30,984 bases of DNA from a virus. The notes below the pieces were generated by a model that had not been told where the DNA came from, ran no database searches, and saw only the letters and a program-made list of their open reading frames with translations. Shown here in pieces: positions 4,101-29,139 of this stretch. Position 1 is the first letter of the stretch; the number at the start of each line of letters is the position of its first letter. The DNA lies in IMG/VR virus record IMGVR_UViG_3300013883_000004; one strand, written 5' to 3'. Made by a program: the position numbers and the translations under genes.

Positions 4101-4123
4101 GTCTAATCTATTAAGAAAGGGGA

Positions 4124-4408
4124 ATGAAGAAAAGTAGAAAAGAAATTCTTATTGAAAATAGAGTAAAGAAGTTTGTCAAAAATTGCAGATGGTTAAACCA
4201 TAAAAATGCTAAACATCTTGTTTATTATTCTTGTGCTTGGGATAGTGAATATGCTCGGGCAGAACACAAGTGTCCACTTACTGGGGAGAAGGCTATGTAC
4301 TTTATACAGCATAAAAGAATGGGGAGAAAAACAGTAATTGAAGGAATAAGCCTAAAAGCAATAAAAATGATTGAAAAAGAGATAGGTTGCTCATTAAAAG
4401 AAGTCTAA
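4124..4408 (+). CDS. Hypothetical protein (94 aa)
   Basis: ORF with the purine-rich AAAGGGGA directly before its ATG. It is the last CDS before the non-coding block. Confidence 0.6.
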   Translation: MKKSRKEILIENRVKKFVKNCRWLNHKNAKHLVYYSCAWDSEYARAEHKCPLTGEKAMYFIQHKRMGRKTVIEGISLKAIKMIEKEIGCSLKEV

Positions 4409-4418
4409 ATAATTATTA

Positions 4419-4630
4419 GTGCGGGGGGTCAACTTACAATACTCGCAAAGTATTGTGAAAGTGGCTTGCTTCTGATAGCGAAGTAGTAGAGATACGAAAG
4501 AGCGATGCAGAGTGCCAATCGGACTAGTGCGACATTTACAAGTGAGAAGTTATCGCTTTGAATTGTAATCTGAGGAGTGCACATTACTCAGCTTACTAGG
4601 ATAGGGTTTGCCACATATCACCCCCGTGCC
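4419..4630 (+). ncRNA. Unclassified structured RNA of about 210 nt (second Y RNA-like candidate or a novel RNA)
   Basis: There is no ORF here and the GC is about 47% by hand count of 4421-4520. A 9-bp closing helix pairs GUGCGGGGG (4419-4427) with CCCCCGUGC (4621-4629). Internal helices are 4436-4443/4449-4456, 4461-4465/4610-4614, 4467-4472/4480-4485, 4501-4506/4552-4557 and 4570-4574/4587-4591. Confidence 0.5.
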
Positions 4631-4691
4631 AGTAGTTATTTAATTGGTTAATTTAATAAGAAAAAGAATTAGTTCTTTAACAATATAAGTT

Positions 4692-4908
4692 CGCCACTTG
4701 TTCAGTAGGGTTAAATTACGGATACTTCAATGGCAATGAAAACTACCGTAGTTATTTATCCCTACCTCAGGGGGTGCGATATAACAGTTACTTCTCCTAT
4801 AAAGAAGAGGTCGCTGGTTCGAGTCCAGCCTTACCATATGGTAAGTAGCTCAGTTGGATAGAGCGCTATATACTGTTATTAATTATCGCCCCTACTGAAT
4901 GGGTGGTG
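4692..4908 (+). ncRNA. YrlA-type Y RNA-like transcript with an embedded tRNA-like domain
   Basis: The terminal helix pairs TTCAGTAGGG (4701-4710) with CCCTACTGAA (4890-4899) and CGCCAC (4692-4697) with GTGGTG (4903-4908) across a 3x3 internal loop. Inner helices are 4776-4780/4885-4889 and 4781-4788/4872-4879. These enclose a permuted tRNA cloverleaf. The RNA lies directly upstream of a Ro60 orthologue on the same strand. Confidence 0.7.
4791..4865 (+). ncRNA. Circularly permuted tRNA-like module
   Basis: The elements read, in order: CTTCT-CCTATAA-AGAAG hairpin (4791-4807); AGGTC (4808-4812); T-arm GCTGG-TTCGAGT-CCAGC (4813-4829); acceptor strands CTTACCA (4830-4836) and TGGTAAG (4839-4845) joined into a hairpin; TA (4846-4847); D-arm GCTC-AGTTGGATA-GAGC (4848-4864); G4865. 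Confidence 0.8.
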
Positions 4909-4911
4909 ATA

Positions 4912-4971
4912 GGTACAGATACTTCAAATTGCATTTTGAGCAAGTCTGTGATGCTCGGACATCTCTGTACC
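4912..4971 (+). other. Stem-loop element 3' of the Y RNA-like transcript (3' module or processing/termination hairpin)
   Basis: GGTACAGA (4912-4919) pairs with TCTGTACC (4964-4971). An inner hairpin pairs GAGCA (4938-4942) with TGCTC (4951-4955). A T-rich tract, CCCCTTTAATTTTT, lies about 10 nt downstream. Confidence 0.45.
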
Positions 4972-5005
4972 TGCCTTGCCCCTTTAATTTTTAATTATTA
5001 AATCT

Positions 5006-6427
5006 ATGTCAAGATTTAACACAAAAGTAGATAACACCACTACTAATTTGGCTGGTGGTAAAGCTTTTAAGATGAATGCAGAGCAAGAGTTGCTTCACGC
5101 CGTTCTTACTACATTCCTTGAAGATAAATACTACGAGTCAGGAGATGAAAGAATAGAAAGAATTAAAACCCTTGTTTCGCAGGTTAAGCCAGAATATGTG
5201 GCTAAACTTGCGTATGTTGCTAGAAATGAGTTTAATATGAGAAGTGTTCCTATTGTTCTTTTAGGAGAGTTATCTAAGGTTCATAAAGGGGACTCTTTGG
5301 TTAAAAATGCTATTGAAAAAACTGTGGCAAGGGTTGATGATTTAACGGAATTGGTTGCATATCTAGATTGTAAACTTCCTAAGCAAGTCAAAAGAGGTAT
5401 AAGGCATTCACTTTACAAGTTTTCTCCTTATCAGTTAGCGAAATACAGAGGAGAAGGCAAAGATGTTAAATTGGTAGATGTCTTTAATCTTGTACATCCT
5501 AATCCTAAGTTTGCAACGGATAAACAGAAAGAAGCTTGGGCTAAATTAATAAAAGGAGAGCTTAAAACTACTGGACAGACTTGGGAGTCAGTGATATCTG
5601 CTTCTAAGGATAAAAAAGCTGACTGGGAGATGCTGGTCAGAGAAAACAAACTTGGGTATATGGCACTTCTAAGGAACTTGAATAACCTTATAAAAGAAGG
5701 TGTATCAGATGAGGTACTGCAATTGGCTATAAATAAGCTTACTAATAGAGAACAAGTAAAAAAATCTAAACAATTGCCATTCAGGTTTGTTACTGCATAT
5801 GAAAATGTGCAAGGCAATAGAAAACTTACAGATGCAATATCAGTAGCAATGGACTATGCGGTAGATAATACGCCAGAACTTGCTGGTAAAACGCTTATAG
5901 CAATAGACTGCTCTGGTTCGATGGAAGGAGATGCAATTCAAAAAGCTTCTATCTTTGGGGCAACATTGGCGAAAGCCAATTCTAATTCAGATGTGATTTT
6001 GTACGATACTTCTGTGAAACAGTTAACTATTTCAACAAGAACGCCAGTAATTGATGTTGCACAATATGTAGAAAAAGAAGCAATGGGGGGAGGAACTAAT
6101 ACTTCTTTGGTCTTTGAGTATGCATATCAAAGTGGAAAGTTATATGACAGAATAATAATTATTTCTGATAACGAATCTTGGCAAGATAGTTACAGTGGAT
6201 GGTATACCACACAAAATGGTACACAAGAGGCATACAACAAGTATAAGAACCTTACAAAAACAGACCCATTCGTATATGCAATAGATATTCAAGGTTATGG
6301 TACGAAAGATATTTCTAATCCTAAGGTTATACATCTTGCTGGTTGGTCATCAAGGCTATTAGATTTTATCGGATTATATGAAAAAGGTGGTTCTATTGTG
6401 GAGTATATAAACTCTGTGGAATTGTAA
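5006..6427 (+). CDS. rsr: Ro60 orthologue (Rsr): TROVE domain plus C-terminal vWA domain
   Basis: The N-terminus TNLAGGKAFKMNAEQELLHAVLTTFLEDKYYESGDERIERIK matches the TROVE signature (T-N-x-AGG-x-AF ... FYE). A MIDAS-type DxSxS motif, IAIDCSGSM, sits in the C-terminal half. At 473 aa the length suits a bacterial Rsr. Confidence 0.9.
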   Translation: MSRFNTKVDNTTTNLAGGKAFKMNAEQELLHAVLTTFLEDKYYESGDERIERIKTLVSQVKPEYVAKLAYVARNEFNMRSVPIVLLGELSKVHKGDSLVKNAIEKTVARVDDLTELVAYLDCKLPKQVKRGIRHSLYKFSPYQLAKYRGEGKDVKLVDVFNLVHPNPKFATDKQKEAWAKLIKGELKTTGQTWESVISASKDKKADWEMLVRENKLGYMALLRNLNNLIKEGVSDEVLQLAINKLTNREQVKKSKQLPFRFVTAYENVQGNRKLTDAISVAMDYAVDNTPELAGKTLIAIDCSGSMEGDAIQKASIFGATLAKANSNSDVILYDTSVKQLTISTRTPVIDVAQYVEKEAMGGGTNTSLVFEYAYQSGKLYDRIIIISDNESWQDSYSGWYTTQNGTQEAYNKYKNLTKTDPFVYAIDIQGYGTKDISNPKVIHLAGWSSRLLDFIGLYEKGGSIVEYINSVEL

Positions 6428-20183: not shown

Positions 20184-22446
20184 AGAATTAGAAGTTCTAA
20201 TAACTGCAAATGCAGATAAGTTAAGGCTGGAACTTCAAAACACAAATACAAAACTTTCAGAATTACAAAATCAAGTTAAGGGTGTTAATAAAAGCATTGG
20301 AACTAATTTGGTTGGTTCTATACTTAAAGCGAATATTGCCACAAAGGTTTTAATGAGTGTGTTAAGAACAACTGTTAATATTACAAAGACAGTCATTACA
20401 AAGACATTTCAATTAGGAAGTCAATATACCAGATTAAAAACAGCAACAGAGGTTATTACAAGAAATATGGGAATGACTACCGAACAAGTAGAAGGGCTTA
20501 GGAATGCTTTGGAAGATGCTAACACTTATGGTAGTCAAGCTGAAAATGTTATTAAGACACTTGCCTTATCAGGACTTGTGGATATGGCAAATGGATTAAA
20601 GACTATTGATGCTAGAACAGGAAAAGCGGTAGAAGGAACAACAGCTTTAATTCTTACAATGAAAGATTTAGGTGCTACTGCTGGAATTGACAGTGCAGAG
20701 GCAATTGACAGATTAACAAAGTTTGTTAGAAGGGGAGAGTTATCGTTTGCTGATGGACTTGTAGAAATTGGTAATATCAATATGGCATATAAGGAGTATG
20801 CGGACAGTATTGGTAAGTCTGTAATGGAGTTATCTGCACAAGAAAGGGCACAAGTTAGGTTAAATATTGTAATGGAAGAAGGCAGAAAGTCATTAGGGGC
20901 TTATGCGTCTACAATGCAGACTTCTGGAAAAGCAGTATTAAGTATTGGAAATGTAGTAACTACCTTATACGAAAGACTTGGAAGTTATTTAGAGCCAATA
21001 TTTGCAAGTATATCACTGGCGGTATTTAGTTTTGTAGACTCTACTAGAACAGCACTTATTGCCAATGCACAAACTTTTCAGCAATGGGCAATTAGAGTTG
21101 CAGGATATGTAGTAGCAGTAGTTAGGGTACTTGGTTCTTGGTTAAGTGCCATACCTGGAATAGGTAAATACTTTGAGTCATTAGCCAACTTCTCATTGAA
21201 ACCTGTTGCTGTTACATTTGGAAAGATAGATGAGAATGCTAACAAAGCAAGTGGAGGAATGGATAAGGCAACAGGCAGTGCAAAGAAGTTGAGTAAACAA
21301 TTAGCAGGGTTTGATGAAATGACTGTTTTGAATAAAGAAGAAGGTGGTGGGGGAATGTTAGGTGGTGTTGCAAGTGGATTAGGTGATATAGGCAAGATAT
21401 TTGATGTATCTGCAATGAATGAGCAAGTTCAACAGATTAATGATATTGCTACTGATGTTAAAGACGATGTTGAAAGCAATATGGAAGGGATTAGAGATAC
21501 TATCGAAAAAACAGGAAAGGCAGTTTTAGTCTTTTTGGCAATTTTTATGGGATTAAAAACAATATCTTTAATAGGCTCTGCTGTATCAGGAGTAACAACA
21601 ATATTTGGTGGACTCGGAAAAATACTTACAGGATTAAATCCTACTGTGTTAATTATAATTGGAGTGATAGCAGTCCTTGCTGGATTAGCATATGTAGTAT
21701 GGAAGAACTGGGGACCTATTAGTGAGTGGTTCAAAAAGATGTGGGAAGATATTAAGACTTGGTTTAATGAAGGCATTGCAGGAATAACAGCACTATTTGA
21801 TGCAGTAGTAGGGTTCTTTAAGAATAAAATCGATTATATGGGAGTAATGATTAACAGGTTTGCTACCGATGTTGTTAATTGGTTTAAGGGGGTTGGAAAT
21901 AGTATAAACAATGCATTTAATACAGTTAAAAATACAGTTGTTTCTATATTTAGCAAGATAACAGACTCTGTTAAAAGTGCAATAGGAAATGTATTAAATT
22001 GGATAGAAGATAGATTTAGTAAGGTTAAAGGGTTCTTCTCTAATTTAGGCTTGACAATTGTTGAAGTTATAAAGAAACCGATAAACGCAATAATTAAAGG
22101 ACTTAATGTATTTATTGATAGTATAAATAAAATTAAAATGCCCGACTGGGTACCTGGTGTAGGTGGGAAAGGAATATCAATTAAAAAAATTAGTTATTTA
22201 GCAAAGGGTGGAGTTATAGACAGTCCTACAATGGCAATTATGGGAGAAGCAGGGAGAGAAGCCGTACTACCGTTGGATAGAAATACAGGGTGGGCAGAAG
22301 AAATTGCTAGACTAATTAATCAAAATAATGCAGGGCAACCTATACAATTAATAGTTAAAATTGGAGATGAGAAGATAGGTGAGAAGTTAATCGATTACAT
22401 AAATGAAAAAGGACTAAGAACAGGTGCTAATATATTAAACATATAG
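20164..22446 (+). CDS. Tail tape measure protein
   Basis: About 760 aa, helical and Ala/Gly-rich, with internal TM-like segments (LVFLAIFMGL..., VLIIIGVIAVLAGLAYVVW). Its position fits. The ATG at 20164 (MAKETVEEL) is preferred. Confidence 0.85.
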   Translation: MAKETVEELEVLITANADKLRLELQNTNTKLSELQNQVKGVNKSIGTNLVGSILKANIATKVLMSVLRTTVNITKTVITKTFQLGSQYTRLKTATEVITRNMGMTTEQVEGLRNALEDANTYGSQAENVIKTLALSGLVDMANGLKTIDARTGKAVEGTTALILTMKDLGATAGIDSAEAIDRLTKFVRRGELSFADGLVEIGNINMAYKEYADSIGKSVMELSAQERAQVRLNIVMEEGRKSLGAYASTMQTSGKAVLSIGNVVTTLYERLGSYLEPIFASISLAVFSFVDSTRTALIANAQTFQQWAIRVAGYVVAVVRVLGSWLSAIPGIGKYFESLANFSLKPVAVTFGKIDENANKASGGMDKATGSAKKLSKQLAGFDEMTVLNKEEGGGGMLGGVASGLGDIGKIFDVSAMNEQVQQINDIATDVKDDVESNMEGIRDTIEKTGKAVLVFLAIFMGLKTISLIGSAVSGVTTIFGGLGKILTGLNPTVLIIIGVIAVLAGLAYVVWKNWGPISEWFKKMWEDIKTWFNEGIAGITALFDAVVGFFKNKIDYMGVMINRFATDVVNWFKGVGNSINNAFNTVKNTVVSIFSKITDSVKSAIGNVLNWIEDRFSKVKGFFSNLGLTIVEVIKKPINAIIKGLNVFIDSINKIKMPDWVPGVGGKGISIKKISYLAKGGVIDSPTMAIMGEAGREAVLPLDRNTGWAEEIARLINQNNAGQPIQLIVKIGDEKIGEKLIDYINEKGLRTGANILNI

Positions 22447-27799: not shown

Positions 27800-28834
27800 A
27801 TGCCTTATATACAACTGCCAACGATTAAAAACAGGGGAAGTCCTGATAAGAAAAACGCAAGTAAAGTTAAAATTATTAAAAGAATTATGGAAAAAGAACA
27901 AGGCTTATATACCAGTCCTGATACATTTGAAAGTAAAAGAGATATAGAGATAAAAAACATTGAAAAAGGAAATGTTAGTATTGTCTACCCTGATAGATAT
28001 CTACCTGATTTGTCCTTTGAAGAACTTCACGAAGACATCAGAAGAAGAGCAGAAATCAGAAATGAAGTTGAGAATAAGGAGTATATTGCCAATATAGAAA
28101 TTAAGACAGATAGACCACTAGCAGTTGGTTGGTTTGCCGATATTCACAGTGGTGGAAGTGATATCGATTACGATAGACTAAAATGGGAAGCGGAGGAGGT
28201 TAGAAGAAATCCATATATGAAGTTGTTTCTAGGCGGAGATTTGGCTGATTGCTTTGATTTTAATCCTGCACAGTTTGGAGATGTTGCCAATATGAATGAA
28301 CAAAGATTGTATTTGTATAAGTTACTAGAATATATAGGATATGGGAATATACTTTGTGGAGTAAGTGGAAATCACGAAAGATTTACACAAAGAACTGGAT
28401 TAGACTTTTACACAGATATTAGAAAAAAGATACCCATTTTTGACGGGGTAGGAACTGTTAAGTTAAAGATTAACGATATTGAATATGTAGGAGCTTTAAT
28501 GCACAAACCTAAGGGGTACTCAATATATAATCCTAACCATCCACAAAAGAGATTCTCAATGGATAACGAGGGATACGACTTCATACTATCAGCACACATA
28601 CACGAGGGGGCTGAACAATCACAATTAAAGAAGACTGCTGATGGAGTTAAAAAACAAGTATTCTTATCAGGAAAGACTTTCAAGAGAGGTGACGATTTTT
28701 TAGATAAGAATAGCAATGTAAGGAAAGAGGGAGATGCTTTGGGTACGAATTGGATTGTATTTAACCATAAAAAGAAAATGATGATACCCTTGTCTTGCAC
28801 GGCGGAAGTAATTGAGTTTTATGGCAATATATGA
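27800..28834 (+). CDS. Calcineurin-like metallophosphoesterase
   Basis: The ordered motifs are DIHSGG (DxH), GGDLAD (GDxxD), GNHE and SAHIHEG (GHxH-like). Confidence 0.75.
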   Translation: MPYIQLPTIKNRGSPDKKNASKVKIIKRIMEKEQGLYTSPDTFESKRDIEIKNIEKGNVSIVYPDRYLPDLSFEELHEDIRRRAEIRNEVENKEYIANIEIKTDRPLAVGWFADIHSGGSDIDYDRLKWEAEEVRRNPYMKLFLGGDLADCFDFNPAQFGDVANMNEQRLYLYKLLEYIGYGNILCGVSGNHERFTQRTGLDFYTDIRKKIPIFDGVGTVKLKINDIEYVGALMHKPKGYSIYNPNHPQKRFSMDNEGYDFILSAHIHEGAEQSQLKKTADGVKKQVFLSGKTFKRGDDFLDKNSNVRKEGDALGTNWIVFNHKKKMMIPLSCTAEVIEFYGNI

Positions 28835-28977
28835 GAGCAAATTGGAACAAAATCTATAAGTGGAGTAAGTGGTTGCTAATATCATCTATTATATTTTTTG
28901 TTCTGCTTAACTGGAAATTGGTTCTGACTTGGATTACTTCACTATTCTTGTGGTTGTGGATTAAGTTAGTTCTTTAA
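28831..28977 (+). CDS. Small Trp-rich two-TM membrane protein (48 aa), below the track cutoff
   Basis: ATGA overlap with the phosphoesterase stop codon. Hand translation gives MRANWNKIYKWSKWLLISSIIFFVLLNWKLVLTWITSLFLWLWIKLVL. Confidence 0.45.
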   Translation: MRANWNKIYKWSKWLLISSIIFFVLLNWKLVLTWITSLFLWLWIKLVL

Positions 28978-28982
28978 CATAC

Positions 28983-29080
28983 AGACCTGAGCCCTTGAAA
29001 AACTCGGATAAGACAGGAGATTCTCCTGTGTATTAGTTCAGCAGGTCTTCGGTAGTCATAAAAGGGCTAGAAAGACTACC
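28983..29080 (+). ncRNA. Candidate structured RNA leader: three 7-bp helices plus a 7-bp pseudoknot
   Basis: AGACCTG (28983-28989) pairs with CAGGTCT (29042-29048). ACAGGAG (29013-29019) pairs with CTCCTGT (29023-29029). GGTAGTC (29051-29057) pairs with GACTACC (29074-29080). AGCCCTT (28990-28996) pairs with AAGGGCT (29062-29068), which lies in the loop of the third hairpin. Hand-counted GC is about 45% over 28981-29080. Confidence 0.4.
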
Positions 29081-29139
29081 ATTGAATATGGAACTATTGA
29101 ATTGCTTTCTTCAACTATCAAAAGGAAAGGAGATGTGAA

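What the first reader, a model, noticed from the sequence alone, without database searches (positions are those of the whole stretch)
4419..4630. Second, unclassified multi-helix RNA of about 210 nt upstream of the Y RNA-like gene
A 9-bp G/C-rich helix, GUGCGGGGG (4419-4427) with CCCCCGUGC (4621-4629) including 2 G-U pairs, closes a domain. Inside are a perfect 8-bp hairpin ACAATACT-CGCAA-AGTATTGT (4436-4456) and the helices GTGGC/GCCAC (4461-4465/4610-4614), TGCTTC/GAAGTA (4467-4472/4480-4485) and AGCGAT/ATCGCT (4501-4506/4552-4557). There is also a hairpin CTGAG/CTCAG (4570-4574/4587-4591) whose 12-nt loop displays the palindrome GTGCAC. It has no tRNA-like part, and I cannot match it to any RNA family from memory. 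Salmonella encodes two Y RNAs (YrlA and YrlB) beside rsr, so this could be a divergent second Y RNA. At about 210 nt and with at least five helices it is larger and more elaborate than I would expect for YrlB. It might instead be a new RNA class that uses Ro60, or an unrelated phage RNA of the kind seen among large ornate phage-associated RNAs.
Basis: seen in the sequence. Interest (0 to 1): 0.72.

Follow-up and report, generated by a model that had tools for sequence, protein, structure and literature searches.

The report
New phage RNA with partner protein
This ~235-nt stretch is a real, conserved folded RNA that matches no known RNA family; it travels as a two-part cassette with the tiny unknown protein gene just upstream, and sits next to the Ro60/Y-RNA genes only by accident of insertion.

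Summary
From this one sequence they are barely better than chance (MFE z = -1.7; a 9-bp long-range helix appears in 49% of shuffles).

The decisive evidence came from homologues. The upstream 94-aa "ORFan" (4124-4408) has three remote relatives (39-44% identity). Each relative is followed directly after its stop codon by a homologue of this RNA.

Across the four distinct sequences a common fold of 67 pairs holds. 96.5% of cells are paired, against 36-44% for slid controls. 36 pairs show compensatory changes, and no shuffle out of 500 reached these values.

The closing helix is really about 22 bp (4406-4428 with 4620-4642) and contains the ORF's stop codon.

The RNA has no Rfam match. It lacks the Y-RNA signature carried by three true Y-like units downstream (4705-4990). 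It is absent from about 95 other phage Ro60 loci, and its homologues have no rsr beside them.

Verdict: this is a new structured RNA family tied to a new small basic protein, carried as a mobile cassette. It is not a Y RNA. Its function is unknown. An RNA-protein complex is my preferred reading, and that is inference.

The parts
4124..4408 (+). Gene for a 94-aa basic protein of unknown fold, the constant partner of the RNA. Its stop codon TAA (4406-4408) lies inside the 5' strand of helix P1.
   Evidence: It has a good RBS (AAAGGGGAATG). Only 4 protein clusters exist in 1.84 and 5.8 billion-protein libraries. Each of the four is followed by the RNA. AF2 pLDDT is 87.7. There is no Pfam, PHROG, PADLOC, NCBIfam, PDB or BFVD match.
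4406..4642 (+). The whole structured RNA, about 235 nt, from the outer end of P1 to its partner strand.
   Evidence: Covariance model R1 matches 4407-4645 at 235.5 bits, E = 6e-66. The reverse strand of a homologue scores only 10.6 bits. There are 67 conserved pairs, 96.5% paired, and 36 have compensatory changes.
4406..4428 (+). P1, 5' strand. The outer half is A/U-rich (4406-4417), A4418 is mismatched, and the inner half is G/C-rich (GUGCGGGGGG, 4419-4428).
   Evidence: Read directly from the sequence. Alignment columns 5-22 pair with 225-242; 93.5% of cells are paired, with A-U/U-A and U-G/C-G exchanges.
4620..4642 (+). P1, 3' strand (ACCCCCGUGC-C-AGUAGUUAUUUA). The block CCA-n-UAGUU-a-UUU is conserved in all homologues.
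   Evidence: The only polymorphism among six near-identical contigs, A4620G, turns U4429-A4620 into a U-G wobble.
4436..4456 (+). P2 hairpin ACAAUACU-CGCAA-AGUAUUGU. The stem covaries fully and the loop CGCA(A/C) is conserved.
   Evidence: All 5 pairs of helix 2 and both pairs of helix 3 show changes on both sides. Pair probability is 0.99.
4461..4465 (+). P3, 5' strand GUGGC, which pairs with 4610-4614.
   Evidence: 100% of cells are paired, with one U-A to C-G exchange in L131.
4610..4614 (+). P3, 3' strand GCCAC, inside the conserved block GAUAGGnUUUGCCRCAUaUC (4600-4619).
4468..4515 (+). P4 domain: GCUUCUG (4468-4474) pairs with CAGAG-U-GC (4508-4515). It encloses P5, a short hairpin capped by the conserved GAGA tetraloop (G4486-C4495, loop 4489-4492).
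Evidence: P4 has 7 pairs, 100% paired, 4 with compensatory changes. P5 is 100% paired.
4515..4535 (+). Most conserved sequence block, CCAAUYGRA-nnnR-UGCGACAU. It forms the junction and the 5' strand of P6 (4525-4531).
   Evidence: These are invariant columns in A3 and A5.
4592..4598 (+). P6, 3' strand C.UACUA, which pairs with 4525-4531.
   Evidence: 6 pairs, 100% paired, 3 with compensatory changes.
4536..4568 (+). P7 (UUACAA 4536-4541 with UUGUAA 4563-4568), with a weak apical P8 (4547-4550 with 4555-4558).
   Evidence: 7 of 8 P7 pairs have compensatory changes, and 94% of cells are paired. P8 is 90% paired.
4570..4591 (+). P9 hairpin CUGAG...CUCAG. Its conserved loop GGAGUGYACAUUA holds a 6-nt palindrome: GUGCAC here, UGUACA in the homologues.
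   Evidence: 7 pairs, 100% paired, 5 with compensatory changes. The palindrome is seen in the alignment.

Best explanation
Positions 4406-4642 encode a conserved, compactly folded non-coding RNA of about 235 nt. It has a ~22-bp closing helix P1 and a multi-way core with hairpins P2, P5 (GAGA tetraloop) and P9 (palindromic loop). It forms an obligate two-gene cassette with the 94-aa basic protein gene directly upstream.

Shown here:
- The RNA and the protein gene co-occur in all four known lineages, in unrelated gene neighbourhoods.
- The stop codon always lies in the outer 5' strand of P1.
- The fold is maintained by compensatory substitutions on the + strand only.
- In this window the cassette is an insertion into a hypervariable slot upstream of the boxA / Y-RNA / rsr operon.

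Inferred:
- The cassette is transcribed as part of the early polycistronic message.
- After the ribosome leaves the stop codon, P1 zips up and clamps the domain.
- The long P1 duplex either serves as an RNase III-type processing stem or protects the RNA's ends, yielding a stable RNA.
- The co-encoded basic protein, which has a Lys/Arg-rich N-terminal helix, binds this RNA to form a small ribonucleoprotein that acts in trans on an unknown target.

It does not depend on Ro60.

The confidence of 0.45 applies to the full statement, including the inferred RNP mechanism. That this is a conserved structured RNA linked to the ORF I hold at above 0.9.
For: Homology and linkage:
- Remote protein homologues P0122-P0124 each carry the RNA right after the stop codon.
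- A profile search finds only these four clusters.
- Flanking genes share no similarity.

Structure:
- RNAalifold predicts 67 pairs, 35 of them compensatory.
- 96.5% of cells are paired against 36-44% for slid partners; 36 pairs have double changes against 6-10 for slid partners; 0 of 500 shuffles reach these values. The same result holds on the model-based alignment.

Strand and non-coding nature:
- The model scores 233-246 bits on the + strand and 10.6 bits on the - strand.
- The MFE is -62.8 kcal/mol on + and -50.6 on -.
- There are 2-10 stop codons in every frame.

Selection:
- RNA identity is 55-62% nt, against 46-56% nt (33-44% aa) for the adjacent ORF.
- RNA G+C is 39-48%, against 31-38% for the ORF.

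Insertion:
- L083 and L005 lack the ORF and the RNA. The junctions fall in the repeats TTAAGAAAGG and ATAAGAAAAAG.

Protein:
- The AF2 model is confident, with pLDDT 87.7 and a basic N-terminal helix at residues 5-20.
Against: - There is no expression, end-mapping or binding data. The RNP step is pure inference from gene linkage.
- With only four distinct sequences, the fine details are uncertain: P8, the P5 alignment in the window, and any pseudoknots.
- The protein has no recognisable RNA-binding fold.
- P1 at about 22 bp with a mismatch is only a borderline RNase III substrate.
- No dedicated promoter is evident upstream of the RNA, so it could be nothing more than a 3' UTR.
- The family is extremely rare, which limits inference about its generality.
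Confidence: 0.45

Rival explanations
1. It is a cis-acting 3'-UTR element of the small protein gene. The folded domain, with P1 overlapping the stop codon, would stabilise the mRNA's 3' end. Alternatively it would insulate or attenuate transcription (G/C-rich P1 followed by a U-rich tail), or give feedback control of the ORF. It would have no trans-acting role.
For: - The RNA always starts at the ORF's stop codon, and no promoter is seen in front of it.
- The 3' strand of P1 is U-rich (AGUAGUUAUUU, with UUUUU in L128 and L129), so P1 looks like an A-tract/U-tract terminator stem.
- The ORF and the RNA are never found apart.
Against: - 235 nt with nine helices, a conserved GNRA loop and invariant junction blocks is far more than a terminator or stabiliser needs.
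- The RNA is more conserved than the ORF it would serve.
- The U's do not directly follow the G/C stem, and the terminator scan finds nothing.
- Downstream genes start 25-30 nt after the RNA in L128 and L129 with no room for a promoter, so read-through must be common.
Confidence: 0.27
2. It is a self-sufficient functional RNA, either a ribozyme or a ligand- or macromolecule-binding RNA. The neighbouring protein would be only a co-transferred passenger or accessory factor.
For: - The RNA has a multi-way junction, invariant unpaired blocks (CCAAUYGRA, UGCGACAU, GAUAGGnUUUGCC), a GAGA tetraloop and a palindromic loop. These are typical of RNAs with tertiary structure or dimerisation.
Against: - It matches no known ribozyme or riboswitch model.
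- Downstream genes are not conserved, so it is not a riboswitch for them.
- The strict co-occurrence with the protein needs an explanation.
Confidence: 0.12
3. It is a divergent Y RNA or another Ro60 partner or substrate. It would bind the Ro60 encoded at 5006-6427 through its terminal G/C-rich stem.
For: - It lies 365 nt upstream of rsr, next to three Y-like units.
- It starts GGGGGGU and ends AUC(A/G)CCCCC, like Y unit B (GGGGGU...AUCGCCCC).
- Its 5' 24 nt resemble one Y unit in L020 at 17 of 24 positions.
Against: - Rfam YrlA gives no hit at E <= 10.
- The HMM of Y-unit 5' blocks does not hit it at E <= 100, yet finds all three true units.
- It has no WUACUUC motif and no GNCGAA motif next to the basal stem (PMC4201824).
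- It is 235 nt, whereas characterised Y RNAs are 80-130 nt (PMC4201824).
- Homologues occur without rsr or YrlA.
- About 95 other phage Ro60 loci lack it.
- The closest Ro60 relatives (80-84% aa) carry other inserts or none at this position.
Confidence: 0.03
4. The conservation reflects a DNA-level element, such as a recombination or attachment site, an origin, or an operator array, or it reflects chance. It would not reflect an RNA fold.
For: - The cassette behaves as a mobile insertion.
- Palindromes are present (CCAATTGG in L129 and L131; GTGCAC/TGTACA).
Against: - G-U pairs and U-G to C-G exchanges are tolerated on the + strand only.
- The model score is about 240 bits on + and about 10 bits on -.
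- Compensatory changes occur in 36 pairs.
- The CCAATTGG palindrome is broken in the window and in L128.
Confidence: 0.03

Closest known systems
Bacterial/phage Y RNAs (YrlA, Rfam RF02553; YrlB; Chen et al. 2014, PMC4201824)
   Same: - In this window it lies beside rsr and the true Y-like units.
- Its 5' and 3' ends pair in a G/C-rich stem (5' GGGG, 3' CCCC).
- It is a non-coding, modular-looking RNA in a phage.
   Different: - It is about 235 nt, against 80-130 nt for Y RNAs.
- It has no GNCGAA or WUACUUC signature and no tRNA-like module.
- It matches neither the covariance model nor the HMM.
- Its homologues are not next to rsr.
- Most phage Ro60 loci lack it.
Orphan structured phage/bacterial ncRNA motifs found by comparative genomics (for example GOLLD, ROOL, HEARO and raiA-type motifs; named from my own knowledge)
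   Same: - It is a multi-helix RNA supported only by covariation.
- It is carried by phages and its function is unknown.
   Different: - It matches no Rfam 15 model.
- It is much smaller than GOLLD or ROOL.
- It is very rare, with four lineages known.
- It has an invariant partner gene whose stop codon is built into the closing helix.
Type III toxin-antitoxin pairs (ToxIN, CptIN, TenpIN)
   Same: - It is a two-component cassette of a protein gene and a structured RNA.
- It is carried on mobile or phage DNA, and the RNA presumably binds the protein.
   Different: - The RNA has no tandem repeats (self-comparison).
- The order is protein then RNA, not RNA, terminator, toxin.
- The protein matches no PADLOC defence model and no ToxN-like fold.
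Lambda N / nut (boxA + boxB) and other RNA-based antitermination modules (put, EAR)
   Same: - The protein is small and basic with a Lys/Arg-rich N-terminal helix.
- It lies next to an RNA with a conserved pentaloop hairpin (P2, CGCAA).
- In this window a canonical boxA (GTTCTTTAACA, 4672-4682) follows 30 nt downstream.
   Different: - The RNA is 235 nt rather than a 15-nt boxB, and the loop does not begin with G.
- The canonical boxA is not part of the conserved cassette. The homologues have only the A-for-C variant GUUAUUUA inside P1.
- There is no similarity to N.
RNase III processing stems that bracket stable RNAs (rRNA leader-trailer helices, T7 early intercistronic sites)
   Same: - A closing duplex of about 22 bp brackets a folded RNA inside a polycistronic transcript.
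   Different: - Cleavage has not been tested.
- The helix is at the lower size limit and carries an A-C mismatch in the window.

Membership tests
Y RNA (YrlA RF02553 / YrlB-type) | Match to the YrlA covariance model | tested here: not met
   A cmscan at E <= 10 over 4300-5050 hits YrlA only at 4769-4897 (53.5 bits). Nothing is found in 4419-4630.
Y RNA (YrlA RF02553 / YrlB-type) | Ro60-binding motif near the 5' end next to the basal stem. The published form is GNCGAAN0-1G (PMC4201824). In this phage clade it is GGG-YRGUGA...WUACUUC. | tested here: not met
   An HMM of 56 Y-unit 5' blocks hits 4771, 4901 and 4709 but not the candidate, even at E <= 100. The only CGAA strings (4479-4482, 4495-4498) are internal and lack the leading G.
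Y RNA (YrlA RF02553 / YrlB-type) | Encoded next to rsr (Ro60) across homologues | tested here: not met
   The homologues in L128, L129/L130 and L131 have no rsr or YrlA in the available flanks. No copy is found in about 95 other phage Ro60 loci.
Y RNA (YrlA RF02553 / YrlB-type) | Size of 80-130 nt, with a long stem plus a large internal loop or tRNA-like module (PMC4201824) | tested here: not met
   The RNA is about 235 nt, has a nine-helix multi-branched fold, and has no tRNA-like part.
Y RNA (YrlA RF02553 / YrlB-type) | Physical binding to Ro60 | not testable with these tools
   This needs co-immunoprecipitation or EMSA with the 5006-6427 protein.
tRNA / tmRNA / tRNA-like structures | Acceptor and T-arm geometry detectable by ARAGORN or the Rfam tRNA clan | tested here: not met
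   ARAGORN finds 0 genes in the window and there is no clan hit in the region. The apparent 3' 'GCCA' is paired in the homologues, where the helix simply continues.
Any Rfam 15 family | Covariance-model match at the gathering score or at a permissive E-value | tested here: not met
   The window has 0 matches at gathering and nothing relevant at E <= 10. The four homologue loci have 0 matches at E <= 1.
Generic conserved structured ncRNA | Homologues with structure-preserving covariation, strand specificity and no coding potential | tested here: met
   Four distinct homologues share 67 pairs, 36 with compensatory changes, and 0 of 500 shuffles reach the observed values. The + strand scores about 240 bits and the - strand about 10. 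Stop codons block all frames.
Type III toxin-antitoxin | Antitoxin RNA made of tandem repeats upstream of a ToxN-like endoribonuclease | tested here: not met
   A self-blast shows no internal repeats. The protein has no PADLOC hit and no structural match. The gene order is reversed.
N/nut-type antitermination module | Canonical boxA (GYTCTTTAANA) conserved together with the RNA hairpin | tested here: not met
   The canonical boxA at 4672-4682 lies outside the conserved cassette. The homologues carry only GUUAUUUA or GUUUUUAA, which is the 3' strand of P1, with A or U at the critical C4 position (PMC5725501).

The most novel reading that the evidence does not exclude
The 235-nt RNA and the 94-99-aa protein together form a previously unknown kind of mobile phage ribonucleoprotein. 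For example, the RNA could be catalytic or target-recognising, with a dedicated protein cofactor. The cassette would then be a self-contained accessory (counter-defence or host-takeover) module that hops between unrelated phage genomes.
Probability: 0.3. Interest if true: 0.8.

Novelty: categorically new. Interest (0 to 1): 0.6.

Why it matters
This adds a covariation-supported RNA family and a partner protein family that no current library recognises. The libraries checked were Rfam 15, Pfam, PHROGs, NCBIfam, PADLOC, PDB and BFVD.

The RNA and the protein gene are fused into one cassette so tightly that the protein's stop codon is part of the RNA's closing helix. Such strict RNA-protein gene linkage in phages has previously pointed to real machines, such as type III TA systems, guide-RNA nucleases and N/nut (from my own knowledge). 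The pair is therefore a concrete and cheap target for biochemistry: two small parts that can be synthesised and co-expressed.

The result also corrects a tempting mis-annotation. Being next to rsr does not make an RNA a Y RNA.

The side observations suggest that phage Ro60 operons are organised like miniature rRNA operons. They show a boxA leader, tandem Y-like units with swappable modules, and a hypervariable ncRNA slot. This speaks to the open question of what phage Ro60/Y RNPs do.

'Categorically new' here means the RNA and the protein are unaffiliated at the family level. Whether the mechanism is new is unknown.

Tried and rejected
- **Rfam and ARAGORN.** Rfam at gathering and permissive thresholds, and ARAGORN, found nothing for the candidate.
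- **Homologues via Ro60.** I fetched 105 loci through the Ro60 protein and then another 22. blastn and nhmmer with the candidate found only 99.6%-identical copies. This misleadingly suggested an orphan sequence.
- **Other nucleotide searches.** GenBank phage blastn at E <= 10 found nothing. IMG/VR exact 18- to 24-mers found nothing or a chance hit: L002, none.
- **Pattern scans.** The genome contigs pattern gave two chance hits, L132 and L133, with no other conserved blocks. A two-block gapped pattern in IMG/VR gave more than 119 hits; none of the 80 loci returned scored with the covariance model.
- **Protein-guided IMG/VR scan.** No relatives found.
- **'Y-unit-derived ends' idea.** The candidate resembles unit B and the L020 unit, but the HMM does not support this.
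- **'tRNA-acceptor plus GCCA end' idea.** In the homologues the CC is base-paired and the helix continues outward.
- **'Degenerate boxA at 4634' idea.** This sequence is the conserved 3' strand of P1. It has A at the critical boxA C4 position.
- **Hammerhead-like CUGAUAG...CGAAA.** No model hit.
- **Coding remnant.** Stop codons block all frames, and the 51-aa minus-strand ORF has no PHROG hit.
- **Shared architecture with other inserts.** The L001, L003, L006 and L106 inserts at the same slot share no sequence or model similarity with the candidate.
- **Function of the partner protein.** Nothing from Pfam, PHROGs, PADLOC, NCBIfam, PDB sequence search, or Foldseek against PDB and BFVD.

Full report
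**Setting**

The window is a siphovirus-like phage contig. All genes lie on the + strand. They include a DnaD-like replication protein, an Erf/Rad52-type annealing protein, NinG/Rap, a methyltransferase and the large terminase.

ORF 5006-6427 is a Ro60 orthologue with TROVE and Ro60-vWA domains. Rfam at gathering thresholds reports nothing in the window. A permissive scan finds YrlA at 4769-4897 (53.5 bits, E = 3.5e-11) and nothing for 4419-4630. ARAGORN finds no tRNA or tmRNA.

**Checking the observation**

As a single sequence, however, the fold is not convincing.
- The in-register MFE has z = -1.68, and 9 of 200 shuffles fold as well.
- That z-value lies within the range of nearby coding windows. 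The Y-RNA array reaches -2.7 to -3.5.
- A 9-bp long-range helix with at most 2 G-U pairs occurs in 49% of shuffles. Only the perfect 8-bp hairpin is unusual, at 3%.
- The + strand folds better than the - strand: -62.8 against -50.6 kcal/mol.
- G+C rises to about 0.42 in a background of about 0.30.
- All six frames are blocked by stop codons.

**First round of comparisons, through Ro60**

I fetched 127 loci through the Ro60 protein. None held a homologue of the candidate, apart from 99.6%-identical copies of the same phage from six samples. Those copies differ by one base, A4620G, which keeps U4429 paired.

These loci did show what surrounds the candidate.
- Upstream of rsr there are three tandem Y-like units, not one. 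Each is a GGG-stem followed by [A/T]TACTTC, and this signature is shared by 69 units across the phage Ro60 clade.
- The array is preceded by GTTCTTTAACA. This is an exact match to the published boxA consensus GYTCTTTAANA (PMC5725501).
- In more distant relatives a sigma-70 promoter is followed by this boxA and then by the Y units.
- The slot between the last translated ORF and the boxA is hypervariable. Relatives carry unrelated structured inserts or none, even when their Ro60 proteins are identical.
- Compared with L083 and L005, the window carries an insertion made of ORF 4124-4408 plus the candidate. It is bounded by the imperfect repeats TTAAGAAAGG (4111-4120) and ATAAGAAAAAG (4656-4666).

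**The breakthrough**

The 94-aa ORF looked like an ORFan in the word-indexed search. An exhaustive HMMER search of 1.84 billion representatives then found three remote relatives, P0122-P0124, of 96-99 aa and 39-44% identity.

Each of their contigs carries a 255-270-nt non-coding stretch directly after the stop codon. These stretches are plainly homologous to the candidate. The shared blocks are AAGUGGCU, UAGAGAUA, GURCCAAUYGRAnnnRUGCGACAU, GGAGUGYACAUUA, GAUAGGnUUUGCCRCAUaUC and CCAnUAGUUaUUU.

A profile search of 5.8 billion proteins finds only these four clusters. The flanking genes of the four loci are unrelated to each other. Those loci contain no rsr, no YrlA and no other Rfam family. The conserved unit is therefore the small protein gene plus the RNA.

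**Structure**

RNAalifold on the four distinct sequences predicts 67 pairs, 35 of them with compensatory changes.

Independent counting gives 96.5% of cells paired, against 36-44% when the partners are slid by 1-3 columns. It gives 36 pairs with double changes against 6-10 for slid partners, and 0 of 500 column shuffles reach the observed values. The model-based alignment gives the same result. With only four sequences this is not an R-scape-grade test, but the margin is very large.

In window coordinates the helices are:
- P1: 4406-4428 with 4620-4642, about 22 bp with one A-C mismatch. The stop codon lies in its 5' strand, as it does in all homologues.
- P2: 4436-4456, with loop CGCAA.
- P3: 4461-4465 with 4610-4614.
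- P4: 4468-4474 with 4508-4515.
- P5: 4486-4495, with a GAGA tetraloop.
- P6: 4525-4531 with 4592-4598.
- P7: 4536-4541 with 4563-4568.
- P8: 4547-4558, weak.
- P9: 4570-4591, with a palindromic loop.

A covariance model, R1, scores the five copies at 233-246 bits on the + strand and about 10 bits on the - strand. It finds no further copy in 531 kb of phage Ro60 loci, nor in 694 kb of pattern-selected IMG/VR loci.

**What it is not**

It is not a Y RNA. It fails the YrlA model and the clade's 5' signature. It is about twice the size of characterised Y RNAs (PMC4201824). It is not linked to rsr in its homologues.

It is not tRNA- or tmRNA-like. The 'GCCA' end I briefly considered is paired in the homologues.

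It is not a type III antitoxin. It has no repeats, and the protein has no PADLOC hit.

It is not a nut site. The canonical boxA lies outside the conserved cassette.

**The partner protein**

The protein is basic. AlphaFold models it confidently from the four-sequence alignment (pLDDT 87.7). The model has an N-terminal Lys/Arg-rich helix followed by a small alpha/beta domain. The invariant residues include N25, K27, N28, H48, C50, T53, G54, H63 and R65.

Foldseek against PDB and BFVD, a PDB sequence search, Pfam, PHROGs, NCBIfam and PADLOC all give nothing.

**How it most likely works**

Shown:
- The protein-RNA gene linkage is obligate across unrelated contexts.
- The stop codon is embedded in P1.
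- The RNA is slightly better conserved than the ORF: 55-62% against 46-56% nt identity.
- The RNA is richer in G+C than the ORF.
- The fold is strand-specific and maintained by compensation.

Inferred:
- The cassette is read as part of the early polycistronic transcript.
- P1 closes once the terminating ribosome has left.
- The long duplex either is cut by an RNase III-type enzyme or caps the RNA's ends.
- The basic protein binds the RNA to give a small RNP that acts in trans.

I put this at about 0.45. The identity as a conserved structured RNA linked to the ORF I put above 0.9.

The main rival is a purely cis-acting 3'-UTR element (0.27). Next is a protein-independent ribozyme or aptamer (0.12). 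A Ro60 partner or Y RNA (0.03) and a DNA-level element or chance (0.03) are now unlikely.

**Novelty and interest**

Neither the RNA nor the protein is recognised by any library available here. At the family level the cassette is therefore unaffiliated with anything known. Its mechanism is unknown, and the family is very rare, with four lineages.

A specialist would find the covariation-supported RNA with a built-in partner gene worth testing. New orphan RNA motifs are not rare in themselves, so I score interest at about 0.6.

Noticed in passing
window 4693-4990: There are three tandem Y-RNA-like units upstream of rsr, not one: A at about 4705-4768, B at 4769-4897 (the YrlA hit, with a tRNA-like module), and C at about 4898-4990. 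Each is a GGG-stem followed by [A/T]TACTTC. The signature GGG-YRGUGA...WUACUUC with ...UUUUCUCCC is shared by 69 units in related phage Ro60 loci, which carry 1-5 units each.
   Followed up: partly
window 4672-4682 (also 28969-28979 and 21813-21823); L089 ~2062-2125, L017 ~2283-2330, L010 ~2093: GTTCTTTAACA is an exact match to the published boxA (NusB/NusE site) consensus GYTCTTTAANA. The window has 3 matches on the + strand against 0.4 expected. It precedes the Y-RNA array. In distant relatives the order is sigma-70 promoter, boxA, Y units, rsr. Phage Ro60 operons therefore look like rRNA- or CRISPR-style untranslated operons protected from Rho (PMC5725501, PMC7862264).
   Followed up: partly
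L001 2196-2399; L003 546-775 and 2478-2665; L006 521-655 (= L121, L122, L124); L106 715-862: The slot between the last ORF and the boxA/Y array is hypervariable. Relatives carry mutually unrelated structured inserts, usually flanked by two boxA copies. Phages with the identical Ro60 protein either have the 136-nt insert (L121, L122) or lack it (L114, L115, L118). The L001 insert folds with z = -3.9. None of the inserts matches Rfam.
   Followed up: partly
L003 546-733 vs L003 2485-2658: Two paralogous ~190-230-nt RNAs (81% identical) flank the rsr gene. Each lies behind a boxA and starts with a stem enclosing GAAUCCGAAG. Visible compensatory changes include AGGGAAGGG/CCCUUCCCU against GGGGAAG/CUUCCCC, and CAAGG/CCUUG against CGAGG/CCUCG. 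L106 has a shorter relative. This is probably another undescribed RNA family.
   Followed up: partly
window 4795-4821 vs L108, L111-L113; L114 vs L121: Y unit B exchanges its inner module. Contigs otherwise identical to the window differ by at least 10 substitutions confined to the anticodon-arm-like hairpin. In L114 and L005 the whole tRNA-like module is replaced by a short hairpin, while the Ro60-binding stem stays the same.
   Followed up: no
window 28978-29139: A ~160-nt untranslated, hairpin-rich stretch follows a boxA that overlaps the stop codon of ORF 28831-28977. It may be another ncRNA or a structured leader.
   Followed up: no
window 4111-4120 and 4656-4666: The imperfect direct repeats TTAAGAAAGG and ATAAGAAAAAG bound the inserted cassette (ORF plus RNA) relative to L083 and L005, which have a single copy (ATTAAGGAAAG) followed directly by the boxA.
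   Followed up: yes
L031 3976-6240; L087; L093: In larger, more distant phages the Ro60 gene sits inside big tRNA arrays (11-17 tRNAs). In L031 it lies next to a phage tmRNA (111.9 bits).
   Followed up: no
L129 825-1823 (- strand): An IS110-family transposase (DEDD_Tnp_IS110 and Transposase_20 domains) lies about 680 nt upstream of the cassette homologue. It is absent from L130, which is identical to L129 across the genes they share, so it is probably incidental.
   Followed up: no
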